Of a stretch of 64,000 nt of DNA, positions 6,941 to 62,141 are shown piece by piece (within the stretch, counting starts at the first letter, position 1; each line of letters starts with the position of its first letter). Location: NCBI GenBank assembly GCA_964019425.1, contig OZ025801.1, forward strand, positions 558,001 to 622,000, given 5' to 3'. The stretch comes from Flectonema sp. DT1601. Lineage: Eukaryota. The translations under genes were made by a program, and so were the position numbers. The notes below the pieces were generated by a model, which did no database searches, had not been told where the DNA came from, and saw only the letters and a program-made list of their open reading frames with translations.

Positions 6941-8154
6941 TTTATTTTCGTTTTTGCAACCAGAAAACTAAATCCCTGTTATTTGTGCCTAAGGAACTCA
7001 TACTACTGATATAAAACTTCGTACGCAACAGTGACAGGATAGGGGAAAGTAGAAATGCGACAACCAAAGTGATCATTTTTGGTGAATCCACAATCACTTT
7101 GGTGGGGGCATTGTTCCACTTTTCCAGCCCAGTCAACATTACACCGATATATCCGATTGGTCATTTTAATCCAACGTTGCTTGAAAATTATTACTTCACA
7201 ATTAGTTTGATACAAAAAAAAGAACGAAAAAAAAAAAAAAAAAAAGGAATCAACTATCACCTTCTGAGCAAAATATTTTTTTTTATGAGCGACAACCATG
7301 GCAATAATAACTGTGAGTAAATTGTAAAGATCGTACTTTCATTTCGCAGCTATTAGAAAAGGTACTCGGCCTAGTGGAGTGTACAATGAGACAGAAAAAA
7401 ACACCTGCCGTCATTAGAAATTATGTTCTTAATGTAAGAAACAAGACCACCAATTATCGAGAGAAAAATACGTCGTGGTTGATTGCGAAAAAAGAAAATT
7501 AAAATAAAATAATCCATCCACGCTTCGAGTTATCGCTTAGATACGTCTAAAGTGTTTTTTTTTTTTTTTTTTTTTTGTTTGTTTCTTAAAAAAAAAAAAA
7601 ACAAAAAAAAAACACGCGCGATTATTAACAGAACAATTGAACTAAACTTAGATTGCCTTTACTCACTTAAGTTATTTCACAGAAAAAAGAGAAAAAAAAA
7701 AAAAGGAAAGTGAAGAAGGCACCCTTCCCAATCGTCATTGGAAGCAATGGGGAGGGACGGACGTACGTATTCTATCATATAAAAAAAATATGAAAAAACA
7801 ATCGCATAGAAACAATTAAAAACAAATTATTTATTATTATTTATTTATTTATTTACGAAGCCTAGGAAGCCAAAAGCCAGGAAAAGCTCACAGAGTAACA
7901 GTTATATCGCTACCAGCAACCGTGAGACTCTCACAGACGATAAGAGACGTAGAATAACCTGGAACAAATGACTACCTAAACCCACCGTCCACGCGAGCAG
8001 ACAGTGTTAGAGACGGCTGATAACGCCAATTTTCGCCAAAGAGAGGGAGAACACGCCACATTAGATCAGAAAATAAGAAATAAAGTAATGATAAGTAATA
8101 GAAATGATACTAATAAATAAAATAAGAAATTACACTAGAGGAAAGAGACGTTCA

Positions 8155-11100
8155 TTATCTACCTCGGGGATTACTTCGCAGGAGGCGACTTAGGCGAGAG
8201 AGGAACTTAGAAAGCTTGGATTCCGACCAGCTAGGATTGACCAGCACATTAACCATAGAAAGGTCATCAATAACAACATTTAAATCGGTAGCTTTATAAG
8301 CGTTATCAATAAGTTCCATAACATATTTCTTCACATCAGAACCCAGTAGCGAGAAACTTGTCTTCCTTTCGATGTGTGTGATTAGTTTCTTCCTCACAAA
8401 AATACCCTGAAGCGGAAACTTCAACAACAACGGATTGTCAGATAACTCTTTAAGATGATTATCAAGCTTGCTGATCAATAACAACGTGAAAGGCTGCCAT
8501 TCGGTTCGAAAGAACATATCCAGAGATAGCTCATCATCAGGTGTCGGAAATCTCATGGTTTGCTTTACCAATTCCCTGGTCTCAACGCATTCAAGCAGCA
8601 GATGCTCAGTTGAGGTATCCTGAAAGCCACAGAACAGACAACATTTAAAGCCCGCGGTGACCCTCGGTAGCTTTACAAGCCTATGGTGAGAGGTTCGCAG
8701 ACGAGACAATTCTACCTCCTGCCCCCTAGTGAGACAGGGAAGGAAACGCTGAGGGCCAGATCCTAGAGTCGCTTTGCTGTATGAATGCGAAGAGTCCACA
8801 GTACCCATAGCCTTCCAATTTGCTTGTTTCTTAATACAACATTGAGCCATCCTGAAATCATACGGAGTTAGTTCAGGGTCAACTGATTGCAAGGCTGCCT
8901 TCTTTGCCAGTGTATCAGCCAGTTCATTCCCTGCAATGCCACAATGAGATGGGACATGCTGGAAAATCAACGGCCTATCAAGAAGCACTGAGCGTTCAAA
9001 AATCTCACAATTTGTTGATGATGACTGCCTGGATGGCCCCCTATGCAGGGAGGCAAGCGCCGACTGACAATCACTGAAAATATGAATCACGCCATGCGAA
9101 ACAACATGAAGATTCTCCTCTAGTAGTTCAAGGGCTGACAATAGTGCTAGTTGTTCTGCATTGTAAATCGTGAGGGACGGTTGGAACTTGGAGAGCTTCT
9201 CAATGACCTTGCCAGCAACTAGCAGAACAGCAGCCCCCCCACATAATAATCCCCGCTCCTCGTCATGGAAGACCGAGGCATCAGTGTAGACTTCAGCAAC
9301 ACACGGGGGCAGTTCATTGAGGGTCGTCATCGCCACAGCATACTTCTCCTCAGGTGTGTCAGTCTTGTCATAACCGCAGGACGTGTTTACAACCAAAGGA
9401 GGATGCTTCGACCACGGAGGGTACTGATGTGGCAGAACTTTCTGGGACCTAAGCTCTGACAGAGAAAATTCCGAGGAACAGGCTTCAACTCTAGTCTGCC
9501 ATGGTCTCTTCTTCTCACCACCGTTAAACAGCCTCCATGAAGGACATTCAGGTTGTCGCCTTAGCAAATCTTCATGAACTAGGGCAAGGAGCCTAGATAT
9601 CGTTTGTTGCAGCGGTGGAATTCGCGACTCAACTGTGAGCACCACATCCTTCGTCGAGAACGAGCAACCAGTGAGTCTTATCCGTAGATGACGCAAGCAC
9701 GCTTCGATCCGCTTGATCTGAGCATCAGACAAAAAGGGAGAAAAGGCCTTCAGTCCAAAGAACGCTCGAGATAACACTGCACCATCTACAAGCTGACGAA
9801 GGGTATCAGTTTTGACCTCATAGGCAGAGAACATTTTGAGTAAACCGCAACCAGCTCGAATTGTTTTCACAATCTTATCCACCTGTTCGTCGAAGCATAG
9901 CGAGTCATCAATGATAACTCCTAGGTATTTCGCGCTCCTGACACGTTTCAGCGGGATCGCTGCTTTCAGCCTGAACTCTTTGCTCTTACGAGCACAGGCC
10001 AGTCGGACAAAGTCAGAACGTCTCGTCACCGGGTAACCATCAATCTCCAGTGGCAGCAAAGCATCAGCGAGATCAAGAACTGCCCCTATTGATGGAGAAA
10101 GCTTCTCAGTGAGAGCACCGGCAGAGCCTGTAGGCATGTGTAACTCTTCAACAGACGATGGGAAGTAAAAGCGAGGTGCCCTACTCCATTCGACATCGGA
10201 GCCAGAGATGCGCTTACCAAAGGCAACGTACTCTGTTTTCTTCATGTTTACCTCCATCTTAGAGGAAACCATCCAACCTTCTATCTGAGAGATGACGGAC
10301 AGGCCCTTCGCTTCGATCCCATCTATCTTCTCATGTTGCAGAAACACGGCAAGATCATCAGCAAACAGAACACTGAGATCAGCATCACTTATTAGACCTG
10401 GCAGGGAGTCGACAAAGATCCGAAATAAGAGAGGACCAAGCACAGATCCTTGAGGGACCCCCTTCGTACACGATCTGGATCCATTATCTAATCCCAGAGA
10501 CAGACTCACATTTCTATCCGAAAGATAATTCGCAAGCCATTTAACATACGGAACCGGCAGGACAGCTACCAATCTATCAACGAGTATTTGATGATCCACG
10601 TTATCGAATGCCCCAGAGATATCAAAGAGGATGATCGCTCCATAACCATCATAGAGTTTCTGCACACCGGAAGCCGCATCCACCAATAGCGAGATGTTCT
10701 CTTCTACATTTCTGCCCGGCGTAAAACCAGACTGCCTAGGGTCCAACTTCCCCTCCAACAAATGTTCACATCGATTACCTACAAGCGACTCCAAGCACTT
10801 CGAAACAATTGACGTCAAAGAGATTGGTCTGTAAGAAGACGGAAGAAGCGGGTCACGATCCCCTCCCTTCGGAATTATTATCACCTTGGCCTTTTTCATG
10901 CAAGAGGGAAAGATACCCCTCCTGAAAGATAGCGAGGCGAGTCTAAGCAATAGTAGGAGCATACGGGGACCCAAGTTAAGCAGCATATTATTAGAAACAG
11001 AATCTAAACCAGACCCGTGGGAGGGAGTCAATGACTTCAGTACCGTGTATAACTCATGAATCGAAAAAGAACCACAGCTTGAGTCATCATAATCAGCAGG

Positions 11101-12318
11101 CTTCGAATCAGGAACTAATAACGGTGAGGATTTTGAATCACCAAAGAAATGGTCGAGTAAATCATCAGCAGCTACCGGAACTTCCTTCGAATTAGACCGA
11201 CCGCCCCTGAGTTCCCGCAGTTTGTCGAAGGCCCAGGCCGCTCCTTTTGAAGAACCAATTTTCGCAATAAGATCAGGTCTCAGCTTAGGTAATTTCTTCC
11301 TCCGCTTCGTATCAGATTTGAACCATTTGTTTGGAAGCGTTTCAATAGCCACCTCCTCAATTAGACTAATAAATTCACATCCAAGCTTGTTCACATTAGA
11401 CATCCCCTCCAAACGATGAGCTCGCGCTTCAGTTAGCACGCGAAATGAGACCCAGTGCTCATCCTCGAACTTGTTGTAGAACCAGCGGCGGTGAGCGGGA
11501 GTGGTAATTTGTGAGCAGCCCGGATATACCGAGATGTCAACCACTATTGGCGTGTGGTCGGACCCACTATCAGACGCACTGTACTGGTGTACATTCAACA
11601 CCTCAATATTGCTGTCGACAAGAAACAAATCAGGTGAAGTCTCTGAACAAGGTCTTGTATCCAGCGGAACATCGCAAATCTGCAGTCCATTTCCGTTAAT
11701 CCAATCAAGAACTGACAGACCTCGCGACGAACTACTTGTTGGAACCACCCTCGACCACGACCGATGGTGAGCATTGAAATCTCCACATACTACTTCACCG
11801 AAGACAACAGAGGTCGGCACCAAGAAATTCTGCGGAATATACACATTAGAAGACGTAATCGGACCGATGTCTGTCATTACCTCGACAACTAACACCTCAA
11901 ACGGTGAATTACGCTCAGTTGGATCCGATAATCTCCTGACCACAAGGGAGTCCCTGCAGAAAGTCGCCAGTCCACCACCGCGTTTTGCCTTGCCATCAAA
12001 ATTTAATCTGATTCTGTCCCTACGGAAGCAGGTGTATCCCTGAAGTTGAATCTGTTCATCAAGAACCAGATCAGTGAGCCAAGTTTCTTGAATATGGAGG
12101 ATGTCAGGATTAGCCGATTGAACGAGCCGTACCAGAGATTCATGGTGCTTTACCATCGACAGCGCATTCCAACTAAGTATTCTCAGCGGCGATATATCAG
12201 ACATCGGACCAGGGTGTCTCGGAAAACCACTACGATAGAGTTCCAGAAGCCCACTCACAGAATAATAGTACTCCAAGGACGGAGTCTTTCCCAATAAAGA
12301 GTCAATTGGAAGTGGTTG
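8155..12318 (-). CDS. LINE ORF2: AP endonuclease, reverse transcriptase, RNase H, CCHC finger
   Basis: APE: ILSWNA, IQETW, GDFNAH, SDH. RT: YRPISLTS, DISGAFD, GVPQGSVLGP, FADD, KYLGV. RNase H: YTDAS, SDCQSAL, HVPSHCGIAGNELAD. CxxC...HxxxxC finger. Frame is open up to the ORF1 stop; first ATG is at 12204. Confidence 0.95.
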   Translation of the reverse strand, partial: QPLPIDSLLGKTPSLEYYYSVSGLLELYRSGFPRHPGPMSDISPLRILSWNALSMVKHHESLVRLVQSANPDILHIQETWLTDLVLDEQIQLQGYTCFRRDRIRLNFDGKAKRGGGLATFCRDSLVVRRLSDPTERNSPFEVLVVEVMTDIGPITSSNVYIPQNFLVPTSVVFGEVVCGDFNAHHRSWSRVVPTSSSSRGLSVLDWINGNGLQICDVPLDTRPCSETSPDLFLVDSNIEVLNVHQYSASDSGSDHTPIVVDISVYPGCSQITTPAHRRWFYNKFEDEHWVSFRVLTEARAHRLEGMSNVNKLGCEFISLIEEVAIETLPNKWFKSDTKRRKKLPKLRPDLIAKIGSSKGAAWAFDKLRELRGGRSNSKEVPVAADDLLDHFFGDSKSSPLLVPDSKPADYDDSSCGSFSIHELYTVLKSLTPSHGSGLDSVSNNMLLNLGPRMLLLLLRLASLSFRRGIFPSCMKKAKVIIIPKGGDRDPLLPSSYRPISLTSIVSKCLESLVGNRCEHLLEGKLDPRQSGFTPGRNVEENISLLVDAASGVQKLYDGYGAIILFDISGAFDNVDHQILVDRLVAVLPVPYVKWLANYLSDRNVSLSLGLDNGSRSCTKGVPQGSVLGPLLFRIFVDSLPGLISDADLSVLFADDLAVFLQHEKIDGIEAKGLSVISQIEGWMVSSKMEVNMKKTEYVAFGKRISGSDVEWSRAPRFYFPSSVEELHMPTGSAGALTEKLSPSIGAVLDLADALLPLEIDGYPVTRRSDFVRLACARKSKEFRLKAAIPLKRVRSAKYLGVIIDDSLCFDEQVDKIVKTIRAGCGLLKMFSAYEVKTDTLRQLVDGAVLSRAFFGLKAFSPFLSDAQIKRIEACLRHLRIRLTGCSFSTKDVVLTVESRIPPLQQTISRLLALVHEDLLRRQPECPSWRLFNGGEKKRPWQTRVEACSSEFSLSELRSQKVLPHQYPPWSKHPPLVVNTSCGYDKTDTPEEKYAVAMTTLNELPPCVAEVYTDASVFHDEERGLLCGGAAVLLVAGKVIEKLSKFQPSLTIYNAEQLALLSALELLEENLHVVSHGVIHIFSDCQSALASLHRGPSRQSSSTNCEIFERSVLLDRPLIFQHVPSHCGIAGNELADTLAKKAALQSVDPELTPYDFRMAQCCIKKQANWKAMGTVDSSHSYSKATLGSGPQRFLPCLTRGQEVELSRLRTSHHRLVKLPRVTAGFKCCLFCGFQDTSTEHLLLECVETRELVKQTMRFPTPDDELSLDMFFRTEWQPFTLLLISKLDNHLKELSDNPLLLKFPLQGIFVRKKLITHIERKTSFSLLGSDVKKYVMELIDNAYKATDLNVVIDDLSMVNVLVNPSWSESKLSKFLSRLSRLLRSNPRGR

Positions 12319-14040
12319 TTAATTCCTCGAGTAGTCCCGTTTCTCATTCCGGTCAAGACGGTCAGCCATTTCAGACTTAGTAGCAGCAACAGAGTTAGCT
12401 CGTTGCCTACTTGAGACCGTCAGCCTCTGAGAACCCGATCCTTTATCGTTATTCAGGGTCTCAATCTCCTTTCGAAGACATCTATTCGCATCCCTCTCTT
12501 CAGCAAGGTCCTGCCGTAGACTCTTCACAGCAGCCGTTAGTTCAGTAACCTGCGATACCAATTTAGAAATGTCGGATTGTTGACAGTTGTACTGCGAAGG
12601 CGGTAGGGGCAGCTGCTGTTTGTTCGATTGTAGCGTCTGCAGATATTGCTGATTTTGCTGATTTTGCTGAGAAACAGGCGGTGGTGATAAATCAATTCCA
12701 ACAGATGGCGCAGCGTTAGGTTGACAGAGGTGAGGAAACTCGTCCAGGTCCATCTTATCGGGATTCTGCTTGCCGAGACCCACCTCTTTGATTGTGATCA
12801 TGTCATCACGAAGAATGATGAAGTTACTCTTGGGTTTCTCCTTGGCCACTACAATCATCTTAGGAAGCTCCTTTCTGCTCCTGTATCGAGCAACGACGTT
12901 AATCTCCCACCCTTGGTGAGCACAGACCTGCACTACTTCCAGCGAACTCATCGCATCAATTGCTCGGCTCCTCAAACAGAACTTGAGGCCTTCAGGTGGA
13001 GGCGGCAGTGCATTCTCACCCAGCTTCGATCGCACGTAATCTTCGTCGGTCTTCAGACACACAATCCCCAGCTTGCGTGAGTGGCGGTAGAACCTCAGAG
13101 GTAACCGGAGTTCACCGGCTAGCGATGAGGCTAACTTAAAATCCACCGTGAGCTGGATTGACGACCTGCACGGTGCTGTGTCTGCGAAATTCGGTACTGA
13201 TAAGAAGTACCCACCACTCCCACTTGCCCTTCTCAAGGCGTCAACAGCGTCTGCTGGCACCCTCATGTTCACAGACTTAACATGAGGGTCTGATTCCTTC
13301 TTGTTGGCAGGCCACAAGAGGTGCGGCTCGATGGGCATGTTCGTGACTGCTGTGTAGTAGTCAGAAGCCTTCTTGCACAACTCATTAGGTGAAGGTACCT
13401 TGTCGTTGGAGTGGAGCGCGTGGTGGTGGAACAATACCACTCGATTGTCACCGGCAGTCAGAGCGTCTCCACGGAAGAGGGTAGCTGGTTTCCCGGTTGA
13501 TACAATCCAACCGGTCCGATGTGTCAGGACACCGTCGTTTACCACCGCCGGGAACTGTATCTTCTTACCGCCCCCAGGGTTTTTCTTGCAAATTACCGAG
13601 AGGTTTGTTCCCGGTCGGAGTTTAATCATCGCATCTACATCAGAGGCCGTGCCCAGTGACACACCACACGTAATCGACGTGTTAAACACGCCTGACATCG
13701 AAATTATTGGAACAGACCAGTCATCATCACGGAGTTGGCAGTCCCACCGCTTCTCTTGCACATTCGGTAAATTAGTTGCTGCCTTCCCATCACATCGGAC
13801 CTCCTTCAGTCCACTAAACGAATTCAGCGCTTGAGCCGGCTCAGGCTTGCGCTTCACTACCTTGGGCCGCTTACCACGTACCCTCGTCCATTCCTCATTC
13901 ATCGGCGATAAATCCACCGATGGCTTCTCTCCCCCGTTGCGTTTAGTAACCCCCTTTACATTCAAACCCTTCTGCATCTCACCGAGCATGCCCACCATCT
14001 TCTCCAGCATCAGGCCAAATAGGCCTGGATCCAATGTCAT
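12319..14040 (-). CDS. LINE ORF1 (573 aa; Gln-rich stretch and C-terminal coiled coil)
   Basis: Long ORF directly upstream of and in frame with ORF2; ATG 20 nt after the SL relic; no obvious CCHC knuckle. Confidence 0.85.
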   Translation of the reverse strand: MTLDPGLFGLMLEKMVGMLGEMQKGLNVKGVTKRNGGEKPSVDLSPMNEEWTRVRGKRPKVVKRKPEPAQALNSFSGLKEVRCDGKAATNLPNVQEKRWDCQLRDDDWSVPIISMSGVFNTSITCGVSLGTASDVDAMIKLRPGTNLSVICKKNPGGGKKIQFPAVVNDGVLTHRTGWIVSTGKPATLFRGDALTAGDNRVVLFHHHALHSNDKVPSPNELCKKASDYYTAVTNMPIEPHLLWPANKKESDPHVKSVNMRVPADAVDALRRASGSGGYFLSVPNFADTAPCRSSIQLTVDFKLASSLAGELRLPLRFYRHSRKLGIVCLKTDEDYVRSKLGENALPPPPEGLKFCLRSRAIDAMSSLEVVQVCAHQGWEINVVARYRSRKELPKMIVVAKEKPKSNFIILRDDMITIKEVGLGKQNPDKMDLDEFPHLCQPNAAPSVGIDLSPPPVSQQNQQNQQYLQTLQSNKQQLPLPPSQYNCQQSDISKLVSQVTELTAAVKSLRQDLAEERDANRCLRKEIETLNNDKGSGSQRLTVSSRQRANSVAATKSEMADRLDRNEKRDYSRN

Positions 14041-14060: not shown

Positions 14061-14076
14061 CAATAAAGTACAGATA
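14061..14076 (-). other. Second, partial SL relic
   Basis: TATCTGTACTTTATTG = last 16 nt of the SL with one mismatch, 20 nt upstream of the ORF1 ATG. Confidence 0.85.
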
Positions 14077-14110: not shown

Positions 14111-14148
14111 CAATAAAGTACAGAAACTGTAGCTTTAGAATCGTTGGT
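14111..14148 (-). other. Retro-copied spliced-leader exon (diplonemid type)
   Basis: Reverse complement ACCAACGATTCTAAAGCTACAGTTTCTGTACTTTATTG matches the euglenozoan SL 3' core CAGTTTCTGTACT(T/A)TATTG and, from memory, the diplonemid 5' part. Not followed by a GT donor, so not an SL RNA gene. Confidence 0.92.
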
Positions 14149-14599
14149 GGAAATAAAAAAGAATCGACAACTTTATTTTTTTTTACTTTTTTACTCACAT
14201 TTTTTTTTGTTTTGTGACGCAACCAGGTGCAAAATCCTAATAAAGGAATAGGTTAGGTTGCGCTGCCACAATTCTCTTTCTACCTAACAACGGGTTGTAG
14301 GTTTATAAAAATAAATAAAAAACGAAAGAAAATATAGAACACTGATTAAGACTCACAACCTCGTCGACTTTTTTTTTTTTTTTTTTTTAAAATGAAAAAT
14401 CTGTCGACCTCAGTCTGTTCCAATTAGTTTGAATTTCGAATGACAATCACGACGGGAGAAAGTCTCGGCAATGTTGATGCGTGTCATATTTTTTTTTTTG
14501 TTGTTGTTGTTTTGATCGTGCGCAACCAAAAAAACAATTTTGTAAAGTTTAAGGTAAACGTTTCTCTTTCAATCGTAAAACACGTTTTCGAGATGGAGA

Positions 14600-15892: not shown

Positions 15893-18800
15893 TTAGTTAT
15901 GGTTGGTTTGACTCAAAAGCAGGAAAGGTTCACAAGTCAACTGATGGATTTGCAAACCTCGACTTCCCGCAAACCATGTGCCTGCTTTCGTCGTACGCAT
16001 GCCACATCCACAACAAAAGTATATTCCAACGCAATTCAAGCAAACATTCCAATCACATGTTAAACTCTCACCTTTACAAGGGAGACGACATTCAAGTATT
16101 TGTCCAAAGAAATAATTTGAATCACATAAATCACAAAAAACTGGTTTATTAATGAGAACTATTTCAAGATCGTGACCTTGTGGGCAAGTGGTGGTTACAC
16201 CTTTTTGTTCTAACTCGGTATGTACTTTCATTGGAGAGAGCACCTTGCAGGATTTAGAATCTGTTTCATTGACGATACTTTTCGATAAGAATCTACTCGT
16301 TATGTCCTTTTCGTTTAAAACAAATAAAGGTAATATGATTTCTAAACCTCCTTCACGCAATTTATCAAAGAGTACCCCGGCTTCGTCAGGTAAGTTTTCA
16401 CTCTCCACATCAGTAAAGCCAGAACAGGTAACCAAATTAAACAGGCCATTGAGAATGACCTCAGTATACTCTATACACCAATCATTGATTACTGACCAAT
16501 CGTATGGCCCTAGTATTGGGAAAAAGTGCTCAGATGGAACATTTGCATGGTGCCCGAGTATGATGAACCCCCTGACAAGTAAAAAAGTAGACCGCGCGTC
16601 GGGAGCGACAAAGTAAGCGGAGTCTTTTTGCTCATAAGGGTCCATACTTAGGAAGAAAAAACTAACACCCAATACATTTGATAAGGCTTGTATGGCTGCA
16701 TGGTCTGCCCACACACCATCAAAACCCATTCCAAGTGCATATTCGTCGTAATTACCGAGTACAAAGTTTTTATATTTATCACTATACTCTACTAACTCAG
16801 CACTGGTGAATTCACGCAGCGTCGCTGCATCAAAGAAGTAAAAGATTTGTTTCGATACTGCTTCAAAGAAACAATTACCAAAACGGTTCACGTCTTCAGG
16901 GTAAAGACCAACTTCTTCCATATACCATATCGTGTGGTCAATTGTAAAGTAATCCACTTTTCCTTCTTGAACAATTGGTTCTTCTGGAATCAACACTACG
17001 GCTTTAGGCGGGTAAACAATAAACTGTCTTTCTTTTGGAAAATGGTAAGAGTGAGGGTTGTTTAATTTGCCAAAGACAACATGAACTAAAGAAAATAATC
17101 TCTTATATGTGGAATCGTAGGCTTTATAAAACTCATCGCAGAATTCACGAAAAGCAAATGCTACGTCTTGTTTCTTAAAACCTCTTTTCCACATTCTATA
17201 AAGTATAAATTCAAATTCAACAAAAAGATCAGGTAAATTATTACAAATCATTGCAGCTCTAAACATAGCACCTTTAACCACTCCTTTCGGTATAGACACT
17301 GGCATAGTTGAATTACTATGTACATATTGCAAAGGGCGAAAAGACCAATCCTTTCGGCTTATAGATAACCTGATAAACTTTCTCTTTTCCTTTGTTTCAA
17401 TTCTGATTCTTGCTCCCAAAAAGACTACGTGGTCTTCACTAATCGTAGTGTCTTTGTAGTCCATCTTGTAGATGCTTGGGGGTGGAGGCTCATGCCCCCA
17501 GCAAAGGAAGTCATCAATATAACGCACCATAGTGCTATAAATCTTTGCTTTTGGAGGGGTTAACGTATCAATGTATTTACTCTCACACTGATAGCAATAA
17601 AGGTTTGCTATTAAAGGGGAAGCATTACCACCCATTGGTATTCCTTTTGTTTGTCTATAACATTTTTTACTTCCGATCGGTTGAATTAATGAATAATCAA
17701 TACACATGTTGATATGTTCAATAACTTGTTCAACGGTAAGGTTTTTCGTCTTGGGTGGTTTCGTTTCGGTAAAAAAATATTCACTTTTTCCTTGCGAATG
17801 ACGCGTTAGGTACTTCAGTTTTTTGTAAGTAAAAGCTTCTTTCACAGCTGCCGCACATTGTTCTTTAAGATAGTCATGTGGTAAGTTGCTGTACATTGTA
17901 GTAAAATCAAAAGTTTTTGGTGGGGTGGAAGCGCTATAAATTGGGTATTTCCTTTTAATAGTTGTAATAACGTCGTCGACAGAATCAACAATGAAATATC
18001 TACGTACACCTGTACGAGCAAACTCTATACAATCTTTTATGTAAAGCACTTTGAGAATCGTTTTTAGAAAACCGACTACTTCCAACTGTACATCCGTCAT
18101 TATATTAGACAAACCTCTAGCCGATAGAGCTGCTATTGTCTCTACTTTTGTATCTTTCAAACGGTTGTCTTTTTCCAAAAACTCATTTAATTCATTACTT
18201 TTTTCTTTTTTCTTTTTATCTTTTTCTGAGGTATAAACTTCACATTTGGTGGACGTGCCAGCAATCCAACGTAGTCGGATGTCCGGTAATTTGTGCAATT
18301 TCAAATTACCATAAAGGTAGGGCACAGACCCTGAAAGTTTACTAAAATTTAATTTCTTTTTTGTCGCTTCCAAGTTTTTAAACATGTCCTCTTCTGCTAA
18401 AGAATAGGACGAAATTTCTTTTCTGAGTAATTGTAAATAAAGGGTTTTACACATTACGCCAACATCATGGCGGGCTTTATCAATTGGTAAAAACACAAAA
18501 TTTTCTTTTAAGTTAGCTAATTCCTGCCGTAAGCGATAAACAGTATTGTCTGCGGGCAGGGGTTGTAATAACAATAAATGAGATAACTTATTTTTAAGCC
18601 AGGAGTTGAGGTACCGTTCGTTTTGGTTCTGTTCCTCCACCGACTCTCCCTTAAGGCTTCGTCTTACTTTGTCCGTAAAAGTATCGATAGACAAATATAA
18701 TTCTTCTAAAATTTCCGTTTGCGGAGCATGCAAGCGAAACCATAAACCCAATTCGAATAGTTTACGTAGATCACCACTACAATTGAGGTTTGTCCAGTGA

Positions 18801-19153
18801 CCCACTAAATGTTCCTGAGATGATTTTTGTCCCTGTGTGGATCTCATCTCGTTACATTTGCAAATATCATCGGATATGTGTTCCTCATCAAGTTCGGTGA
18901 CAGAACTCATATTTAGAACAACAGATCCAACAGTTCTGCCTAAGGAAAAAGACACTTTAACAGGATCAAGAGAATTGAAAAAGTTTTTGAATAGTGCGTG
19001 TTTAAATACTGAACCAAAATTTAAATTCTTAAGAGAAGGGTGAACCATTCTAAGACAGAACCGGGGCCACGTAGAACGGGGAAAAATAAAAAATGGAGGG
19101 GAAATCGTAGGGCATCTGTCCTTCTCGCAACAGCTATTTTTACCCATGTACAA
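15893..19153 (-). CDS. Penelope-like element reverse transcriptase fused to OTU-family protease and zinc fingers
   Basis: PLE RT motifs PIDKA..VMCK..Y, YGNLKLHK.P..RWIAG, FDFTTMYSNLPH, QTKGIPMGGNASPLIANLY, RYIDD. OTU-like GNCFFEAVS...GVWADHAAIQALS...EHFFPI. C-terminal Cys clusters. Start uncertain (TTG; possible frameshift to 19296). Confidence 0.88.
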   Translation of the reverse strand: MYMGKNSCCEKDRCPTISPPFFIFPRSTWPRFCLRMVHPSLKNLNFGSVFKHALFKNFFNSLDPVKVSFSLGRTVGSVVLNMSSVTELDEEHISDDICKCNEMRSTQGQKSSQEHLVGHWTNLNCSGDLRKLFELGLWFRLHAPQTEILEELYLSIDTFTDKVRRSLKGESVEEQNQNERYLNSWLKNKLSHLLLLQPLPADNTVYRLRQELANLKENFVFLPIDKARHDVGVMCKTLYLQLLRKEISSYSLAEEDMFKNLEATKKKLNFSKLSGSVPYLYGNLKLHKLPDIRLRWIAGTSTKCEVYTSEKDKKKKEKSNELNEFLEKDNRLKDTKVETIAALSARGLSNIMTDVQLEVVGFLKTILKVLYIKDCIEFARTGVRRYFIVDSVDDVITTIKRKYPIYSASTPPKTFDFTTMYSNLPHDYLKEQCAAAVKEAFTYKKLKYLTRHSQGKSEYFFTETKPPKTKNLTVEQVIEHINMCIDYSLIQPIGSKKCYRQTKGIPMGGNASPLIANLYCYQCESKYIDTLTPPKAKIYSTMVRYIDDFLCWGHEPPPPSIYKMDYKDTTISEDHVVFLGARIRIETKEKRKFIRLSISRKDWSFRPLQYVHSNSTMPVSIPKGVVKGAMFRAAMICNNLPDLFVEFEFILYRMWKRGFKKQDVAFAFREFCDEFYKAYDSTYKRLFSLVHVVFGKLNNPHSYHFPKERQFIVYPPKAVVLIPEEPIVQEGKVDYFTIDHTIWYMEEVGLYPEDVNRFGNCFFEAVSKQIFYFFDAATLREFTSAELVEYSDKYKNFVLGNYDEYALGMGFDGVWADHAAIQALSNVLGVSFFFLSMDPYEQKDSAYFVAPDARSTFLLVRGFIILGHHANVPSEHFFPILGPYDWSVINDWCIEYTEVILNGLFNLVTCSGFTDVESENLPDEAGVLFDKLREGGLEIILPLFVLNEKDITSRFLSKSIVNETDSKSCKVLSPMKVHTELEQKGVTTTCPQGHDLEIVLINKPVFCDLCDSNYFFGQILECRLPCKGESLTCDWNVCLNCVGIYFCCGCGMRTTKAGTWFAGSRGLQIHQLTCEPFLLLSQTNHN

Positions 19154-19681
19154 AAAACGACGGTATTCCCAAGCATGTTATAATGATATTTTACGCGTTC
19201 GTCTTTCAACAAAATGTTGGGAACGAGACAAAAACACAACATGCCTCTGAGACCATCTAAGGAAAACTCAGAGAAAGAATTGGGACGGCTCTTCACAAAT
19301 CCTCGATACTACGTAAGCAAATTAGCGGAATATAGAACTTTAAAAAAAAAGAAAAGAAAAAAAAAAGGATCAGGTCACCCCAACTAAAAACATGATAATA
19401 TCAAACGTATTATCAGTTTTTTTTTTTTTTTTTTTTTAAAAACACCGATAAGGAGAACTGACTCCCGTTCAGCTGATAGTGAGACGTGTTGACAGTCGTC
19501 GTGTCAGTTACGTGGAGTGACGCTCCTTATGAAAATAAAACAAAAAAAAATTTTAAAAAAAAAAAGAAAAAATAAAAAAATCACTATTGTCAAATGTTTC
19601 TCAGAACCGTAGTCGTAGTTTAAAAATTTTTTTTGTTTGCGTCCAACAACAACGTGTTTAAAAAAAAACAATAACAATTTC

Positions 19682-49287: not shown

Positions 49288-52200
49288 CTACCTGTCAGTA
49301 TCACTATCCATTGAATTTTCAGATGAAGCCGAGTCCTTAATCTCAAGAGTGACACTAGCAGTAGTTCCAATTGCTGAAGAAACTATTCGATTTATATTAT
49401 CACTTGCTTCACTGGTATCACGTTGGATATCTGTTGGTGGCAGTGGAGGTGGAGGAATAAGAAGCTCTGGAGGCGGACTCGGTGGTTCACTCGGCGGAGG
49501 CGAAGGCACCTCCGATAAATCAGGTGAAATAGTTCTCAAATCCCTTTCCATTCCACAACTAGATCCTGGTAAAACTGGTGGTGACAATGGGTTATTCCCC
49601 GGGGTACTTAAATAATGACTTGACACTGATCTGATGTCTTGAGGCACATGTTCTTGTGATCTCATTCTCTGTGCCGCATGTGCCATAGTCAGTACAGCCT
49701 TTAGTGTGTTGCCTCCTGAATTTTGAAAATTCAAACGAGCTACTCTCCCTCTCCATAAACTTTGAATTTTCATAGCAGCAAGAGATTGAGAAACATCCAC
49801 ACAACTGTCTGATGGAATTTCGAAAGGAACAATTTCACTCCAACGCTTATCAAAACCTGCTTTTATATCAGCAGGCAGGGTAATCTCACTGGCAGTCACT
49901 TCCTTATTAAGTAACACTGTGCAACACCGTAGAATAACATTTCTAAATGCAACTTTTCCATCAGCAGTTTCGTACAAACCACCAACTATTTGTGCCAAGT
50001 CTTTTGGTCGTTTCGCACCTCCCAAACCTAAAGGCGGTGGTACCGATCTCAAGAACCCAGGCAGACGCGTAGTTGCAATTGTAGCTGTTCCACTGGGATC
50101 GTAGACTTTCCACTTATTCATGAACCCGTGTACATCCATAACAGTTAGTAGATTATCCTCCTCTGCTTGTGCAGTAAAGAAGTCCTCCAAGATGACGGCA
50201 ATTATTAAGTTTAATATAATAAATGTTCCCAAAAGCATGAAAGAAACAAAATAAAAAGGAGCACCATAAGGTGATCCACAGCTGTCTAATTGCGGATCAC
50301 AGCTGGGTTCAGTACTGACTTGACAGTCGTGTAGAATTCCCTGCCAAGCTTCTCCAGTAGTCATTCTGACTAATAAAAGCATCGCGTTCTTGAAATCGTC
50401 GAAATTCGCTTGATCTGAGAGATATTTTCCTCTTTGCATTTTTCCGAAAATTTTAACTCCGACGACGGCGTACAAGAAAATCAAAATCAGAAGCAATCCA
50501 GCCACATTAACCAAACCAGGAAGGGACAACATCAGCGTTCTGATCAACGTTCGAATACCTTTCGCAATTCGTACTGCTCGAAGTAGCCTTGCAAGACGAA
50601 GGACTCTGAATAATGATAAAGCAGGTCCAGTAACTAGCAATCCAACACAGGTGATAACAAAAACGCTAAAGTCGAATTTGTCCCAATGGTCTTGAAAATA
50701 CCCTCTTGGAGACATAGCGATGCATTTCAACACGACTTCAAGACCAAACAAAGACACGAATGAGACATTAACTATGTACAAAGCGTTATCCCATTCCTTT
50801 GATTGACCAGAGTGTTCTAATCCCATAGCGATAGTGTTTAGCATAATACAAGTCATTATGAATGTATCAAATCTCTTATGGAGGATTGCTCGATGGAGAG
50901 CTAGTCTGAATGAACCAAGATCTGCCTGTCTATGAAAAGGTTTAACATTAGCTGTAACAACTGAAAGGATTTCTTTCCATTCGGTTTGTTCAGGTGAGAG
51001 TGCAGTGTTGTTGTTCGCTTCTAATATCCTTTGTTGACGATCATATTTATCTACCAACACACCAGTAAATAAATTTACCAAAAAGAAAGCACCGACGACA
51101 ATAAACACAACGAAATACAGTGCCATCAGCGGTTGGTGATTTCTTTCACCAGAATATCCTTCTTCGGTAGCGTCAATTCCCATGTTAGTCACTTCAATCC
51201 AACCCTCGAGGGTTGCTATTTCAAACAGCGTTAGAACAGCACTTCCCAAATTATCGAAGTTACTCGGATGAGCTTGCCATCTAAAACCTGCTTCGTTACA
51301 CGATGCAATATTAGTATAAGCTGGTTTATCACCCCAGAGTATGTTGGTGCATGCTCCAAATTTTCCAGCAAAAAAATGAACCCCAGTAATACCGAATATC
51401 GTGAGAATCATAATCGATAAGATAAAAACGTGTGACAGAGACGGGATAGCAGCCATGAGAGACTCCAAAACTAGTCTCATTCCTCTTATTTTAGAAACTG
51501 CTCTGAGTGGTCGAAGCGATCTCATCATTCTGACGACTTCAAAAACATCGACAGCACTCTTACTAGTTCCCATTAGATTTAAAGTAACGGTTGTTATACC
51601 GCATATTACAATAAAGAAGTCAAGACGATTCCAAGGGTCTCTTCTTAAATACGATCCCGGACTCGCAATAAAACCATAAGCGATGATCTTAAGAAGGGAT
51701 TCAAACGTAAATAACGACGTCACGACGATGTCGAAGATTGATAGAATCCTTGGAAGTTTGGTATCAGGAGCGGCAATGGGATTCTCAAGTGTCAGAGTCG
51801 CTGATGAAAATAAAACGACGACAATAACGATTGCTTCGAACGTACGGGATTCGCAAACTTTACGAAGTTTTGATCGCAGAACACTATCTGAAGGAAGATA
51901 CATGAAAGACGATAACTGTTGTGAATCTTCTCGTTGCTGAATCCCTCCATTACAATACGACTGATATTCTATTCTGGGAGGCATTGCACTTTGATTAACA
52001 TCTTCATCTAACGGTATTATTTTATCAACCCCAGAAAGAACAGATGAACTTCTCGCTTGTGACAATGTCGGTATCTGGAGTTCTATATTTCTAAGTCTTT
52101 CCAGAGCCTCACTTTGTTTTAATTTTTCTTGTTTTGCTAACTCTGATACCCGTTCCCATAGCTGATGGCCTTCTTGAGCACTTCCAACAGCGCAAGATGA

Positions 52201-54852
52201 CAATAATTTCTGAACATGTGTTTCAATAACTTCGCTGTCACCGTTAGGTTCGTCTAATATATTTACTCTGTCGATACCCGTCGTAGTTCGTAACAGTTCC
52301 TCAGCTACCTTCAGACAAGTATCATTAATTTCAACTTGCTCTGGCTCTCTGCTGTACGTAGACTCTCGTCTTCTCCCCGTCTCTGGTCCTTTTCCTTGAA
52401 TACGATTATTTCTGTAGCAGCAGCATAAAGATGATAGAAATGATGGTAGCTGTCTCTCAGGTGGTTTTTCCTGAGGGTCTTCATCGTTTTCTGTGACTGA
52501 TGCGAGTCCGCTGAATAAAACAGCAACGAACAGATTAAGAACCATATAATTACCAATAACAACTAAGGTTGTGAAATAAAGCGCTGCTGCATTGCTGGAA
52601 CCGCGCATTCCATTATACATCACGAGATTCCAGTCCTCTGCCGTTACAATTTTGAAAACCGTGAGAAGTGATTCCCACAAAGTATCAAAATTTTCACGTG
52701 GAACATGCGTGCATCCAACCGTCTCATTTACCACAGTGAGGGTGTCCACGTCAAGACCGCAAAAATGTCCTCCAAAAAATTGCATTCCCAACAACGCATA
52801 TATAAAAATTACTAACAATAACAAAACAGTTAAAACCGAAGCTCCTACTAAGGAACGTTCTAGCGTCTTAGTGAACTTGTATAGCTCTGGAAACTGACGT
52901 AGGAATCTCATTAGTCGAAATGATCGAAAAGAACTTGCACCAACCGTACCAGATATAACAAACAAGTCTAAAAGAGAAACGATTACAATAATCAAATCAA
53001 ATATGTTGAATCTATCTCCAATGAACTCCTTTCTAGACAGGGTTAAGACTTTTGCCAACGACTCAGCTAAAAATATAAAAGTAAAAACGTAATTCGAAGC
53101 GTGTTGCAATTTTGTTAAACTTTCTGGTTGATCAGCGAACCTCGTCATTAAAACGATCGTATTTAAAAATATCAAAGCCATAATTATCCAAGTGAACCTC
53201 GGATTAAGAACAATGATCCTCAGACGGAATCTAAAAGCATCAAACATCACTCTAAATCGACTCTTTTCACTCGACTCTGTATCCTGAGACACCGGCACAT
53301 CAACAGCACATGTTAGTTGCACTTGCGAAGATGCAATTTTCCGTAGTTCATCTTGAATCCGAAGGGATTCTACCTCCCTAAACGTTGCTTCATTTTGATG
53401 CTCGTTTTGAACTTTTACATTCCCCTCAAAAGACGTATTGATGATCGCAAGTGTTAAGTTTATTATAAAAAAAGTTCCAACCATAATAATGAATATAAAA
53501 TACAGCGACGCAAAAGGTGTCGTCGCATCGACAACGTGGTACATCGTTTCCGTCCATCCTTCTAAAGTTAGAGCCGTGAAGAGAGTTAGAAATGCCATTC
53601 CAATATTATCAAAAGAAGTTTTTCCATTCCCAGGATTTTGAAAATGAACACATTCATATCCCCAAGGACATTTATAGCTGTATAACCGATCAAAATTCGA
53701 CGTGCAAACTCGTCGTTGGATTTCTATTTCCGGTGGAGATTTAGACATATCAAAACATCTCGTGGATAACTGTCCTCTCCATAATCTAACAGCCATGATT
53801 CCCATAATTAATAAGAATGACGTGTAAAGGAGCATCACATCTGCTAGTTGAGGTACAGAGTTCACAAGTGAATTCATTATAATGTGAACTTGTTTAAATT
53901 TTGAAGCTGCTCTGAGTGGTCGGAGAAGTCTGAGGGCTCGAAGACCGCTGATTGCTCCTCCATTGCTGCCTTCTGTCCCGCTTGCTAATTCATAAATAAT
54001 AGTGATGGCAGCAGATATGACTATGATTCCGTCCAGAACGTTCCATGGATCCCTCATATAAGAGAATGAATTTTCATACAATCCAACACTTAAAATTTTC
54101 AACCCCATTTCAATTGCAAAACAACCAGCGAAAACGTATTCAGATCGAAAGCTCATTTGATTTCGTATCGAACTATTATCCGTATCAGTCGGGTCTTCAA
54201 GAGCTAAGAAGACACAATTTAATAAAATCAATGCAAGAACAATTCTATTAAAAGCCCTTGATTCAATAATAGCTATCAAATCCTGTCTCCATTTAGGTAA
54301 TGAGTGTCGTTCACCTACCATAGTACGAAGGTATTTAAAAGCTTCGACATGACACGCTTGATCGTTGACTAACTTACAAACTTCTGGAGCGACATGAAAT
54401 TGAGCAGCATTTCTAAGATATGGTTGGAAATCAGAATTTGATGCTCCGTCAGGTCTTCGGGTGATCAGAGCAGCGGAAGACCTCCGTCGACGATTCGGAG
54501 GAGGTGAAATAATTGATAGCCTCTCAGCTTTGTCACCAACACCCACAGGATCGAACGAACTAGATAACACTGGACTACTTATATACGAAGGCAGTGGAGA
54601 TATTGACGGATTCTGCTTCCATCTGGCAGTTGACGGCGATCGCTTTCTTCGTTGATGAACTTTTCTTCTCACCTCAGAACTTGCTGACAAACTCGGAGGA
54701 CTAACAATCCCATCACATGCTGATGATGATGAAAGATCACTCTCACAACATGAACTCACAGGTGCTGATAGCAGAGAAGTCTTTTGCTGAAAGGGAATAG
54801 TCGATAGTTGTGGAGGTAGCCCATTGGCGTTCACTCCGTCGTCATTTTCCAT
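49288..54852 (-). CDS. Four-domain voltage-gated calcium channel alpha-1 subunit
   Basis: Four S4 Arg arrays; pore loops TLEGW, TAEDW, TLEGW, TGEAW (EEEE filter); EF-like W..YDP and IQ motif KIQSLWRG. Confidence 0.96.
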   Translation of the reverse strand: MENDDGVNANGLPPQLSTIPFQQKTSLLSAPVSSCCESDLSSSSACDGIVSPPSLSASSEVRRKVHQRRKRSPSTARWKQNPSISPLPSYISSPVLSSSFDPVGVGDKAERLSIISPPPNRRRRSSAALITRRPDGASNSDFQPYLRNAAQFHVAPEVCKLVNDQACHVEAFKYLRTMVGERHSLPKWRQDLIAIIESRAFNRIVLALILLNCVFLALEDPTDTDNSSIRNQMSFRSEYVFAGCFAIEMGLKILSVGLYENSFSYMRDPWNVLDGIIVISAAITIIYELASGTEGSNGGAISGLRALRLLRPLRAASKFKQVHIIMNSLVNSVPQLADVMLLYTSFLLIMGIMAVRLWRGQLSTRCFDMSKSPPEIEIQRRVCTSNFDRLYSYKCPWGYECVHFQNPGNGKTSFDNIGMAFLTLFTALTLEGWTETMYHVVDATTPFASLYFIFIIMVGTFFIINLTLAIINTSFEGNVKVQNEHQNEATFREVESLRIQDELRKIASSQVQLTCAVDVPVSQDTESSEKSRFRVMFDAFRFRLRIIVLNPRFTWIIMALIFLNTIVLMTRFADQPESLTKLQHASNYVFTFIFLAESLAKVLTLSRKEFIGDRFNIFDLIIVIVSLLDLFVISGTVGASSFRSFRLMRFLRQFPELYKFTKTLERSLVGASVLTVLLLLVIFIYALLGMQFFGGHFCGLDVDTLTVVNETVGCTHVPRENFDTLWESLLTVFKIVTAEDWNLVMYNGMRGSSNAAALYFTTLVVIGNYMVLNLFVAVLFSGLASVTENDEDPQEKPPERQLPSFLSSLCCCYRNNRIQGKGPETGRRRESTYSREPEQVEINDTCLKVAEELLRTTTGIDRVNILDEPNGDSEVIETHVQKLLSSCAVGSAQEGHQLWERVSELAKQEKLKQSEALERLRNIELQIPTLSQARSSSVLSGVDKIIPLDEDVNQSAMPPRIEYQSYCNGGIQQREDSQQLSSFMYLPSDSVLRSKLRKVCESRTFEAIVIVVVLFSSATLTLENPIAAPDTKLPRILSIFDIVVTSLFTFESLLKIIAYGFIASPGSYLRRDPWNRLDFFIVICGITTVTLNLMGTSKSAVDVFEVVRMMRSLRPLRAVSKIRGMRLVLESLMAAIPSLSHVFILSIMILTIFGITGVHFFAGKFGACTNILWGDKPAYTNIASCNEAGFRWQAHPSNFDNLGSAVLTLFEIATLEGWIEVTNMGIDATEEGYSGERNHQPLMALYFVVFIVVGAFFLVNLFTGVLVDKYDRQQRILEANNNTALSPEQTEWKEILSVVTANVKPFHRQADLGSFRLALHRAILHKRFDTFIMTCIMLNTIAMGLEHSGQSKEWDNALYIVNVSFVSLFGLEVVLKCIAMSPRGYFQDHWDKFDFSVFVITCVGLLVTGPALSLFRVLRLARLLRAVRIAKGIRTLIRTLMLSLPGLVNVAGLLLILIFLYAVVGVKIFGKMQRGKYLSDQANFDDFKNAMLLLVRMTTGEAWQGILHDCQVSTEPSCDPQLDSCGSPYGAPFYFVSFMLLGTFIILNLIIAVILEDFFTAQAEEDNLLTVMDVHGFMNKWKVYDPSGTATIATTRLPGFLRSVPPPLGLGGAKRPKDLAQIVGGLYETADGKVAFRNVILRCCTVLLNKEVTASEITLPADIKAGFDKRWSEIVPFEIPSDSCVDVSQSLAAMKIQSLWRGRVARLNFQNSGGNTLKAVLTMAHAAQRMRSQEHVPQDIRSVSSHYLSTPGNNPLSPPVLPGSSCGMERDLRTISPDLSEVPSPPPSEPPSPPPELLIPPPPLPPTDIQRDTSEASDNINRIVSSAIGTTASVTLEIKDSASSENSMDSDTDR

Positions 54853-60445: not shown

Positions 60446-61096
60446 TTATAATTTTGACTTCTTCTTACCATGAAGATGTTGGAGAAGGAAATTAATAGTT
60501 TGTGATATTGCTTTTGGAGAGACAGAACGAGAAGGTTTCTCGCAGGACTTAAACAAAACATCTCTGAACCCGAACTCTCTCAGCTTACGTTCTACATTCC
60601 GACCTGATTTTATAGTAGCAACTCGATCAAGGTCACCGTGAAGTAGTAGTATTGGAGTCTGGTAATGATGTGGTGATAGAGGATTACTCTTCTTTGGTTT
60701 TTTAAAAAACGAAGACATGCAAACGACAGCAACTGGCGGCACCTCCATACTCAACGAAGCCAACGTGACTGCGCCACCCTGACTGAAACCAACGATGGCT
60801 AAATTACTGCACCTAACCCTCTCCGTCTCGATTAACTGTTTTACTAAATGTAATCCGTCGCTCGGCATTTGCTCATTAAGAACATACCACATGGGAATAC
60901 CCTGTTCGTTGAGAGGTGCGGTGGGGATCACAAAACGTGTTTCTGGCATTCTCAAGGACATCGTTTGTATTATTTCATACCACAATAAAGCACTAGTTCC
61001 GTATCCATATAGCATAATACATGTTGATGTGTGATTATGTCCTTCACAGGGACCTATCTCTTCAATAGAAATTATTTCACGAGATTGAGTGGACAT
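60446..61096 (-). CDS. Acyl-protein thioesterase/carboxylesterase paralog, catalytic His apparently lost, PTS1
   Basis: FVIPTAP, GFSQGG, HGDLD; KPSRSV where the paralog has LPHSV; ends SKL. Confidence 0.88.
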   Translation of the reverse strand: MSTQSREIISIEEIGPCEGHNHTSTCIMLYGYGTSALLWYEIIQTMSLRMPETRFVIPTAPLNEQGIPMWYVLNEQMPSDGLHLVKQLIETERVRCSNLAIVGFSQGGAVTLASLSMEVPPVAVVCMSSFFKKPKKSNPLSPHHYQTPILLLHGDLDRVATIKSGRNVERKLREFGFRDVLFKSCEKPSRSVSPKAISQTINFLLQHLHGKKKSKL

Positions 61097-61396
61097 TTTT
61101 AACTCTGTGTTGGAATTATGATGTGAAAAAAAAGTCAATTTCAGTTCTTCAAAAAAAAAAAAAAAAAAAAAAAAAATTGTTGGCACAAGACAACAGATAG
61201 TGAGAAATAATTTTTCGAATCGGTTTTTTCCCGATGATTTCATACGTCATTTTTGGCTCATTTTTTAAAAACTTACAGATCCACCCAGAAACGTATACTA
61301 CGGTCACGGCCTTGTGTGGCTTTTTTTTGTAGTCAGGCAAGGCATCGAAGTCTGGTGTGCTTGATGCCTTGAAAGTATAATAAAAATATCAAACTA

Positions 61397-62068: not shown

Positions 62069-62141
62069 ACTGTGAGGTCTGTTTTATGATGAAATAAAAT
62101 GAAGTTTTTCTTTTATAAAAGAAAAAAAAAAAAAAAAAAAT

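What the first reader, a model, noticed from the sequence alone, without database searches (positions are those of the whole stretch)
12295..12324. ORF1 and ORF2 in frame, separated by one TAA in a CARYYA readthrough context
Seen: ...AAT TAA CAA CCA CTT CCA ATT GAC TCT TTA TTG..., and the frame stays open for the whole of ORF2. Known: stop-CARYYA is the tobamovirus-type readthrough signal, usually with UAG. CAACCA fits it exactly. LINE ORF2 is normally made by reinitiation or coupling. Inference: programmed readthrough sets the ORF1:ORF2 ratio, as in some retroviral gag-pol genes.
Basis: partly seen in the sequence, partly recalled or inferred. Interest (0 to 1): 0.75.

Follow-up and report, generated by a model that had tools for sequence, protein, structure and literature searches.

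The report
Leaky stop before 2A in LINE
In a jumping gene likely from a marine diplonemid protist, the two genes lie in one reading frame, split by one stop codon with a virus-type leaky-stop signal, and the gap encodes a worn 2A-like peptide with no start codon, so the copying enzyme is likely made by ribosomes running through that stop, which is untested.

Summary
Observation confirmed (minus strand): ORF1 ends in TAA at 12321-12319, then CAACCA (CARYYA, about 1 in 600 by chance), 38 open codons without ATG, then ORF2 (endonuclease, RT, RNase H). The stop is family-wide: 9 of 9 ORF1 sequences that reach it end there. The host is probably a diplonemid (spliced leader matches 38 of 39 bases).

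Its last 30 codons align without gaps to the 2A (StopGo) leader of a sister family (shuffle p at most 1e-5), though the core is degenerate (GFPRHPGP). An AUG-less coding leader behind a leaky-context stop fits readthrough.

Against: ORF2 has its own ATG right after PGP. A TTG sits opposite the sister family's Met. UAA is the least leaky stop. One decayed copy (inferred stop TAG) has a 2-base indel in the spacer that puts an overlapping ATG in frame. No DNA of sister families and no RNA could be obtained.

Readthrough about 0.45; reinitiation, overlap-start or trans-splicing routes together about 0.5. New variant of a known kind, directly testable.

The parts
14111..14149 (-). Retro-copied spliced leader at the element's 5' end (Diplonema type)
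   Evidence: 38 of 39 bases match the Diplonema sp. leader in the PMC3795323 supplement; followed by GA, not the GT of an SL RNA gene intron
14061..14073 (-). Second, 13-base spliced-leader relic just 5' of ORF1
   Evidence: the only 2 matches in the window, 0.09 expected by chance
12319..14040 (-). ORF1, 573 aa; predicted RRM-like domains (about aa 198-286 and 349-423) and a long helix (aa 482-532, probable coiled coil)
   Evidence: no Pfam hit; model pLDDT 61.7; best RRM matches Z 7.2-7.7, middling
12345..12347 (-). Out-of-frame ATG inside the end of ORF1; it opens a short frame here but is in frame with the spacer in one decayed copy
   Evidence: P0137
12319..12321 (-). ORF1 stop TAA
   Evidence: same end in 9 of 9 family sequences that reach it
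12313..12318 (-). CAACCA, exact CARYYA hexamer
12205..12318 (-). 38-codon in-frame spacer without ATG
12205..12294 (-). 30-codon 2A-derived leader, homologous to the sister-family leader; its first codon TTG (12294-12292) lies opposite the sister's Met
   Evidence: 10 of 30 identical, no gaps, p at most 1e-5; rank 1 of 52,750 peptides
12205..12228 (-). Degenerate StopGo core GFPRHPGP
   Evidence: profile score 5.6 against at least 23.4 for the training peptides
8155..12204 (-). ORF2 from its own ATG, 1349 aa: APE endonuclease (about 12177-11554), RT (about 10875-9943), RNase H (about 9294-8893), Cys/His finger (about 8643-8587)
   Evidence: finger read from the sequence
7827..7855 (-). (TAAA/TAA)n 3' tail of the element

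Best explanation
This is an intact two-gene LINE retrotransposon, likely of a diplonemid, in which a small share of ribosomes likely read through the ORF1 stop (TAA-CAACCA) into an AUG-less, 2A-derived coding leader and so likely make ORF2 protein at a low ratio to ORF1 protein. Shown: the frame, the stop, the hexamer, the family-wide position of the stop, the homology of the spacer to a 2A leader, and the lack of an AUG in it. Inferred: that the spacer is still translated and that entry is by stop suppression. Because the StopGo core is degenerate, the readthrough product here is more likely a fused ORF1-ORF2 protein of about 1960 residues than a cleanly released ORF2 protein. In sister families with good cores the same route would release free ORF2 protein (inferred; their junction DNA was not seen).
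For: (1) Exact CARYYA after the stop, about 1 in 609 by chance; 0 of 59 distant LINE loci have it. (2) The stop is fixed in 9 of 9 family ORF1 sequences that reach it, and a 31%-identical ORF1 from the diplonemid Flectonema neradi ends at nearly the same aligned place. (3) The last 30 spacer codons align without gaps to the leader of sister family P0158: 10 of 30 identical, 0 of 100,000 shuffles reach the score, p = 1e-5 even without the 8 core residues; ORF2 bodies are 41-42% identical. Neutral DNA would hardly keep this, so the spacer is or recently was translated, yet it has no ATG. (4) In a diverged copy the stop must be TAG if P0199 and P0137 are one copy, and the one-change solution keeps CARYYA. 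(5) In two sister families every listed ORF2 protein that carries the N-terminal region is called from a Met inside the endonuclease domain (4 of 4 and 5 of 5), a hint of AUG-independent entry in this clade. (6) The ATG at 12204 has a C at -3, and its upstream 60 bases are less AT-rich (0.48) than those of all 17 other gene starts compared (0.62-0.85). (7) UAA in the TMV context is read through in plants (PMC2754532).
Against: (1) ORF2 has an ATG right after PGP that gives a complete endonuclease domain; 4 contigs are called from it. (2) Copy P0137 has a net 2-base deletion in the first spacer codons, which breaks the ORF1 frame and puts the overlapping ATG 12347 in frame; the copy also has two large internal deletions, so this may be decay or assembly error. 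(3) TTG 12294 lies exactly opposite the sister family's Met, as a lost or near-cognate start would. (4) UAA is much less leaky than UAG or UGA before CARYYA in human cells (PMC4132726). (5) No stimulatory RNA structure (z +0.49, -0.51, -1.12). (6) The 2A core departs at three tested positions; non-conservative changes of the Glu were inactive or nearly so in other LINEs (PMC3708506). (7) One sister family (4 of 4) and part of another (3 of 9) have a Met ahead of their 2A. (8) Inner-Met starts may be a gene-caller artefact. (9) The finding was flagged because of the hexamer, among very many junctions scanned.
Confidence: 0.45

Rival explanations
1. ORF2 protein is made by termination-reinitiation, as proposed for mammalian L1, starting at ATG 12204 or at the near-cognate TTG 12294. 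The 2A leader is a recent relic or is entered at TTG, and CARYYA is chance.
For: ATG 12204 gives a whole endonuclease domain. TTG 12294 is opposite the sister's Met, 24 bases after the stop. The 2A core is degenerate. L1 has a 63-base spacer and proposed reinitiation, and caliciviral reinitiation tolerates non-AUG starts (PMC5972666).
Against: It needs the in-frame position and the 1-in-609 hexamer both by chance. A gap-free, stop-free 30-codon leader on a long RT branch (0.57 against 0.13-0.22 for sisters) argues for continued translation. Weak context of the ATG.
Confidence: 0.25
2. The family's ancestral ORF2 began at the overlapping ATG 12347 with a 46-residue 2A leader. A recent 2-base insertion in the window's subfamily shifted the leader into the ORF1 frame by accident, and ATG 12204 rescues ORF2.
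For: P0137 reads from ATG 12347 into the spacer. A 2A about 40-80 residues from the ORF2 start is the usual layout (PMC3708506).
Against: Seen in 1 of the 15 listed cluster members, a copy with large deletions. The near-identical intact copies are not called from that ATG. CARYYA remains chance. 10 of 25 members could not be seen.
Confidence: 0.15
3. A second trans-splicing event adds the spliced leader at an AG in or before the spacer and gives a separate ORF2 mRNA read from ATG 12204.
For: The element carries a spliced leader at its 5' end. Essentially all Diplonema mRNAs are trans-spliced (PMC10161547). Five AG sites lie in the spacer. A hidden promoter explained reporter signal at the Tca2 junction (PMC2194720 abstract).
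Against: No strong pyrimidine tract: longest run 6 against 8-50 for the 17 other starts; best 19 of 30 before an AG, tied for lowest with 2 of 16 other genes. It does not explain the coding leader or the hexamer.
Confidence: 0.1
4. The TAA is a copy-specific nonsense mutation or an assembly error in a single fused ORF.
For: Some distant LINEs have 330-510 open codons ahead of the endonuclease. ORF1-2A-ORF2 fusions are reported in a pseudoscorpion (PMC13405545).
Against: 9 of 9 sequences end at the same codon, one with a different inferred stop codon. No fused form among the hits.
Confidence: 0.02

Closest known systems
Type I (tobamovirus) stop-CARYYA readthrough, TMV replicase
   Same: One in-frame stop followed by an exact CARYYA hexamer, with a polymerase downstream and no RNA structure needed.
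   Different: The stop is UAA, not UAG; the 5' codon is AAT, not CAA; activity is unmeasured; the host is a euglenozoan retrotransposon; an AUG follows 38 codons later.
2A-bearing APE-type LINEs: L1Tc and ingi of trypanosomes, Ingi-1_AC, CR1/L2/Rex1/Crack elements (Odon et al. 2013, PMC3708506)
   Same: 2A-like peptide just before the APE domain; APE, RT and RNase H as in L1Tc; HPGP variants occur in 20% of L1Tc copies.
   Different: Ingi-clade elements lack ORF1 and, in trypanosomes, start with Pr77 and are unspliced. This element has a 573-aa ORF1, a spliced leader at its 5' end, an AUG-less leader in frame with ORF1 and a degenerate core.
Gag-stop-pol retroelements: Moloney MLV (PMC5009743) and Candida Tca2 (PMC2194720); SIRE1 env readthrough (recalled, not read)
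   Same: Structural gene and polymerase gene in one frame, split by one stop.
   Different: Those are LTR elements or retroviruses. MLV needs a pseudoknot. Tca2's flanking sequence gave no readthrough in yeast.
Mammalian L1 and silkworm SART1 ORF2 translation (PMC5972666)
   Same: Bicistronic LINE RNA with a short spacer and an ORF2 AUG.
   Different: They use termination-reinitiation or a UAAUG overlap; no 2A leader or leaky-stop hexamer is described in the passages read.

Membership tests
Type I stop-CARYYA readthrough | Single in-frame stop between two coding regions | tested here: met
Type I stop-CARYYA readthrough | CARYYA at +4 to +9 | tested here: met
   CAACCA
Type I stop-CARYYA readthrough | Stop is UAG (typical) | tested here: not met
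   TAA here; TAG inferred in one other copy; UAA also works in the TMV context in plants
Type I stop-CARYYA readthrough | Stop, hexamer and frame conserved across relatives | tested here: inconclusive
   Stop position 9 of 9; hexamer inferred for 1 copy only; frame broken in that copy; no junction DNA for sister families
Type I stop-CARYYA readthrough | Measured hexamer-dependent readthrough | not testable with these tools
   Needs a reporter, ribosome profiling or mass spectrometry
Active 2A/StopGo peptide | Core (D/G/C/N)(V/I)ExNPGP or a listed single variant | tested here: not met
   GFPRHPGP differs at p13, p14 and p16 (consensus from PMC12846837)
Active 2A/StopGo peptide | Position just before the APE domain, with a hydrophobic upstream tract | tested here: met
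   10 residues before SWN; sisters 4 and 8; homology to the sister leader
Active 2A/StopGo peptide | Skipping activity | not testable with these tools
   Needs a dual reporter
APE-type non-LTR retrotransposon | ORF2 with APE and RT, and a simple-repeat 3' tail | tested here: met
   PF03372, PF14529, PF00078; tail 7855-7827
APE-type non-LTR retrotransposon | Target-site duplication | tested here: inconclusive
   Only an 8-base T-rich match, not at the tail end
Ingi clade | APE, RT, RNase H with an N-terminal 2A | tested here: met
   (2A degenerate)
Ingi clade | Single ORF, no ORF1 | tested here: not met
   573-aa ORF1 with homologues in sister families
Ingi clade | RT phylogeny groups it with L1Tc and ingi | not testable with these tools
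   No named ingi references among the fetched proteins; the tree shows only a 100/100 clade with three sister families

The most novel reading that the evidence does not exclude
A diplonemid LINE lineage couples two viral-type recoding steps in tandem: leaky stop-CARYYA readthrough of the ORF1 stop sets the dose, and a StopGo peptide 38 codons later, with a non-canonical core that still works on diplonemid ribosomes, frees ORF2 protein from ORF1. No ORF2 start codon is then needed.
Probability: 0.15. Interest if true: 0.85.

Novelty: new variant of a known kind. Interest (0 to 1): 0.6.

Why it matters
How LINEs translate ORF2 from a two-gene RNA is a long-standing open question (stated so in PMC3708506 and PMC3894237). 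Reinitiation, stop-start overlap and IRES routes are discussed there; readthrough is not, in the parts I read. This junction is a compact, testable case of a gag-pol-like route in a non-LTR element. It could also explain why some elements keep both an ORF1 and a 2A. A natural series of 2A cores in related families (GDVERNPGP, GVHPNPGP, GFPRHPGP) offers StopGo variants from a euglenozoan. If readthrough fails, the case still shows a 2A leader decaying once an AUG takes over.

Tried and rejected
No genome is held for this window, so copies could not be read as DNA. Sequencing runs: no RNA holder listed; contigs of 4 runs did not cover 12283-12358, so the stop and hexamer were not seen independently; X1 matches 12205-12282 without change. 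Scans for related DNA gave only distant LINEs (best segments 22-45% identity): 78 loci in metagenome contigs, 2 in genome contigs, none in viral contigs; the ORF1 alignment was too diverse to scan with. None of the 80 loci held an ORF1 homologue or the leader core. The search for short ORF2 fragments gave 1 protein, not covering the spacer; the Flectonema ORF2 was not found. A repeat cluster look-up listed the same 15 of 25 members. RNA structure around the stop: none significant (best z -1.76, upstream of the stop). Rfam: only low-complexity chance hits. Atlas search on ORF1: hits at most 0.80, uninformative. Foldseek on the ORF1 model: nothing at E 0.001 or better. A non-standard genetic code was rejected: the 19 long minus-strand frames end in all three stop codons and run up to 1854 codons without one. 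An idea that the 18 bases after PGP are a recent insertion was dropped because this linker is 4, 8 and 10 residues in three families. A likeness of the spacer's CTTTATTG to the leader's 3' end is within chance. Earlier-findings look-ups by sequence, place and one word set were blank. The Diplonema genome supplements held none of the four search terms.
Full report
Observation. On the minus strand, ORF1 (ATG 14040, 573 aa) ends in TAA at 12321-12319, followed by CAACCA and an open frame to 8155. The hexamer fits CARYYA exactly. Its chance at a given stop is about 1 in 609, and 5 of 3147 minus-strand stop triplets in the window have it. A 38-codon stop-free stretch is not unusual by itself (0.14 to 0.17). 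The spacer holds no ATG; the first one is at 12204.

The element and its host. ORF2 carries APE endonuclease, RT and RNase H domains and a Cys/His finger. A (TAAA)n tail lies at 7855-7827. ORF1 has no Pfam hit. Its model (pLDDT 61.7) shows RRM-like domains at middling Z (7.2-7.7) and a long helix. The element begins with a 39-base stretch matching the Diplonema sp. spliced leader at 38 of 39 bases, with a second relic before ORF1. The closest non-family ORF1 homologue comes from Flectonema neradi (that it is a diplonemid is recalled). Of the 22 frames of 150 codons or more, 19 lie on the minus strand, including all above 370 codons, as in Diplonema gene clusters (PMC10161547). The host is therefore probably a diplonemid with the standard code.

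The stop is family-wide. Thirteen ORF1 sequences of this family were examined, the window's own included. Four break off earlier; 9 of the 9 that reach the C-terminal region end in DYSRN. The Flectonema homologue (31% identical) ends at nearly the same aligned place. No fused ORF1-ORF2 protein appeared among the hits, though 10 of 25 members of the ORF2 cluster could not be listed.

The spacer is coding. Four related ORF2 families were found (28-43% identity), probably in the same assembly as judged by shared contig lengths. Three form a 100/100 clade with this element on a 59-row RT tree built from 58 of the fetched proteins. Two related families show a 2A peptide before the endonuclease: LLRSGVHPNPGP (P0158) and LLKAGDVERNPGP (P0181). 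The window's spacer ends in LYRSGFPRHPGP. Its last 30 codons align without gaps to the P0158 leader, 10 of 30 identical; 0 of 100,000 shuffles reach the score, and p is 1e-5 without the 8 core residues. The match to P0181 is weak outside the core (p 0.2). A profile from 24 2A-like peptides among the hits ranks the spacer end first of 52,750 peptides in the window, but at 5.6 bits against at least 23.4 for held-out training peptides, and at rank 398 without the PGP columns. So the leader is 2A-derived and its core is degenerate. Single G12, H14 or H16 variants can be active in natural contexts (PMC12846837), but this core departs at three positions, and non-conservative Glu changes were inactive or nearly so in other LINEs (PMC3708506).

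How ribosomes could enter the leader. There is no ATG in it, so the options are readthrough, a near-cognate start, or no entry at all. For readthrough: the frame, the hexamer, and its absence from 59 of 59 distant LINE loci with an upstream in-frame stop. Of 18 distant loci with a long upstream ORF, none has CARYYA after its stop. In two sister families all listed proteins with the N-terminal region start at a Met inside the endonuclease domain (4 of 4, 5 of 5), which hints at AUG-independent entry but may reflect the gene caller. In a third family 4 of 4, and in the more distant family 3 of 9, have a Met before the 2A. The ATG at 12204 has C at -3 and a less AT-rich upstream region than the 17 other starts compared.

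The one informative diverged copy cuts both ways. P0199 and P0137 share a contig length and probably come from one deleted copy. P0199 ends at the usual codon, and P0137 reads the overlapping frame with Ser where the window has Asn. The stop must then be TAG, and the one-change solution keeps CARYYA. The same copy has a net 2-base deletion early in the spacer, which breaks the ORF1 frame and puts ATG 12347 in frame with the leader. It also has two large internal deletions, so the indel may be decay or an assembly error; it may also be the ancestral state.

Further evidence against. ATG 12204 yields a complete endonuclease domain. TTG 12294 lies opposite the sister's Met. UAA is much less leaky than UAG or UGA before CARYYA in human cells (PMC4132726), although it is read through in the TMV context in plants (PMC2754532). 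No RNA structure follows the stop. A trans-spliced ORF2 mRNA is possible in this host, but the pyrimidine tract is weak. The finding was also flagged because of the hexamer, which weakens the chance figure.

Verdict on mechanism. My rough weighing, which is inference and not a computed result: readthrough into the 2A-derived leader 0.45, most likely giving a fused protein here; reinitiation at ATG 12204 or TTG 12294 0.25; an ancestral overlapping start with a recent accidental frame 0.15; separate trans-splicing 0.10; copy-specific nonsense 0.02.

Comparison with what is known. It works like tobamovirus type I readthrough and gag-stop-pol retroelements, but membership is unproven because activity and cross-family conservation are untested. 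It resembles ingi/L1Tc in domains and 2A position but fails the single-ORF criterion (PMC3708506, PMC5814959). Elements with both ORF1 and 2A are described as rare, and ORF1-2A-ORF2 fusions are reported (PMC13405545). Six searches listed no paper on LINE ORF2 made by readthrough or on readthrough followed by StopGo; most hits were seen only as listings, and subscription journals are not covered. Two unchecked notes of this scan report in-frame LINE junctions in probable dinoflagellates; they are leads, not support.

Papers seen. PMC3708506: parts 1-4 of 6. PMC3894237: parts 1-2 of 3. PMC12846837: passages and one discussion section. PMC3795323: passages and supplement rows. PMC10161547: passages and a blank supplement search. 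PMC2194720: abstract. PMC4132726, PMC5009743, PMC5972666, PMC13517186, PMC2754532, PMC13405545, PMC5814959 and 10.64898/2026.09.24.754024: passages. SIRE1 readthrough is recalled only. Supplements of the two 2026 2A screens were not seen and may hold activity data for similar cores.

Noticed in passing
window 14149-14111 and 14073-14061 (-): The element starts with a full spliced leader and carries a second leader relic, which suggests it is trans-spliced from host polycistronic RNA and recycled through mRNA, unlike the unspliced, Pr77-driven L1Tc.
   Followed up: partly
window 15893-19177 (-): A second retroelement-like ORF (1094 codons) with a divergent RT below the Pfam cut-off, Penelope-like by motifs (label recalled), and a C-terminal OTU-like domain; Pfam showed no endonuclease.
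   Followed up: no
window 28788-28329 (-): A 460-base GTATGA...CAG intron in the proteasome beta-3 gene; splicing restores a 204-aa protein. The other long frames in the window run uninterrupted.
   Followed up: yes
window 14051-14042 and 12324-12315 (-): The 10-mer AATTAACAAC occurs both just before the ORF1 ATG and across the ORF1 stop, so the first ATG is also preceded by an out-of-frame TAA-CAACTA. Unexplained; it may be chance.
   Followed up: no
proteins P0158, P0181, P0011, P0167: Related LINE families give a natural series of 2A cores from canonical (GDVERNPGP) through GVHPNPGP to degenerate; the window's family has the longest RT branch of its clade.
   Followed up: partly
L068:2274-2280 and L041: L068 has a 530-codon ORF ending TAA directly followed in frame by the ORF2 ATG; L041 has a canonical 2A in an AUG-less open stretch before the endonuclease.
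   Followed up: no
window 60446-62083 (-): Two tandem phospholipase/carboxylesterase genes; a four-domain ion channel gene lies at 49288-54852.
   Followed up: no
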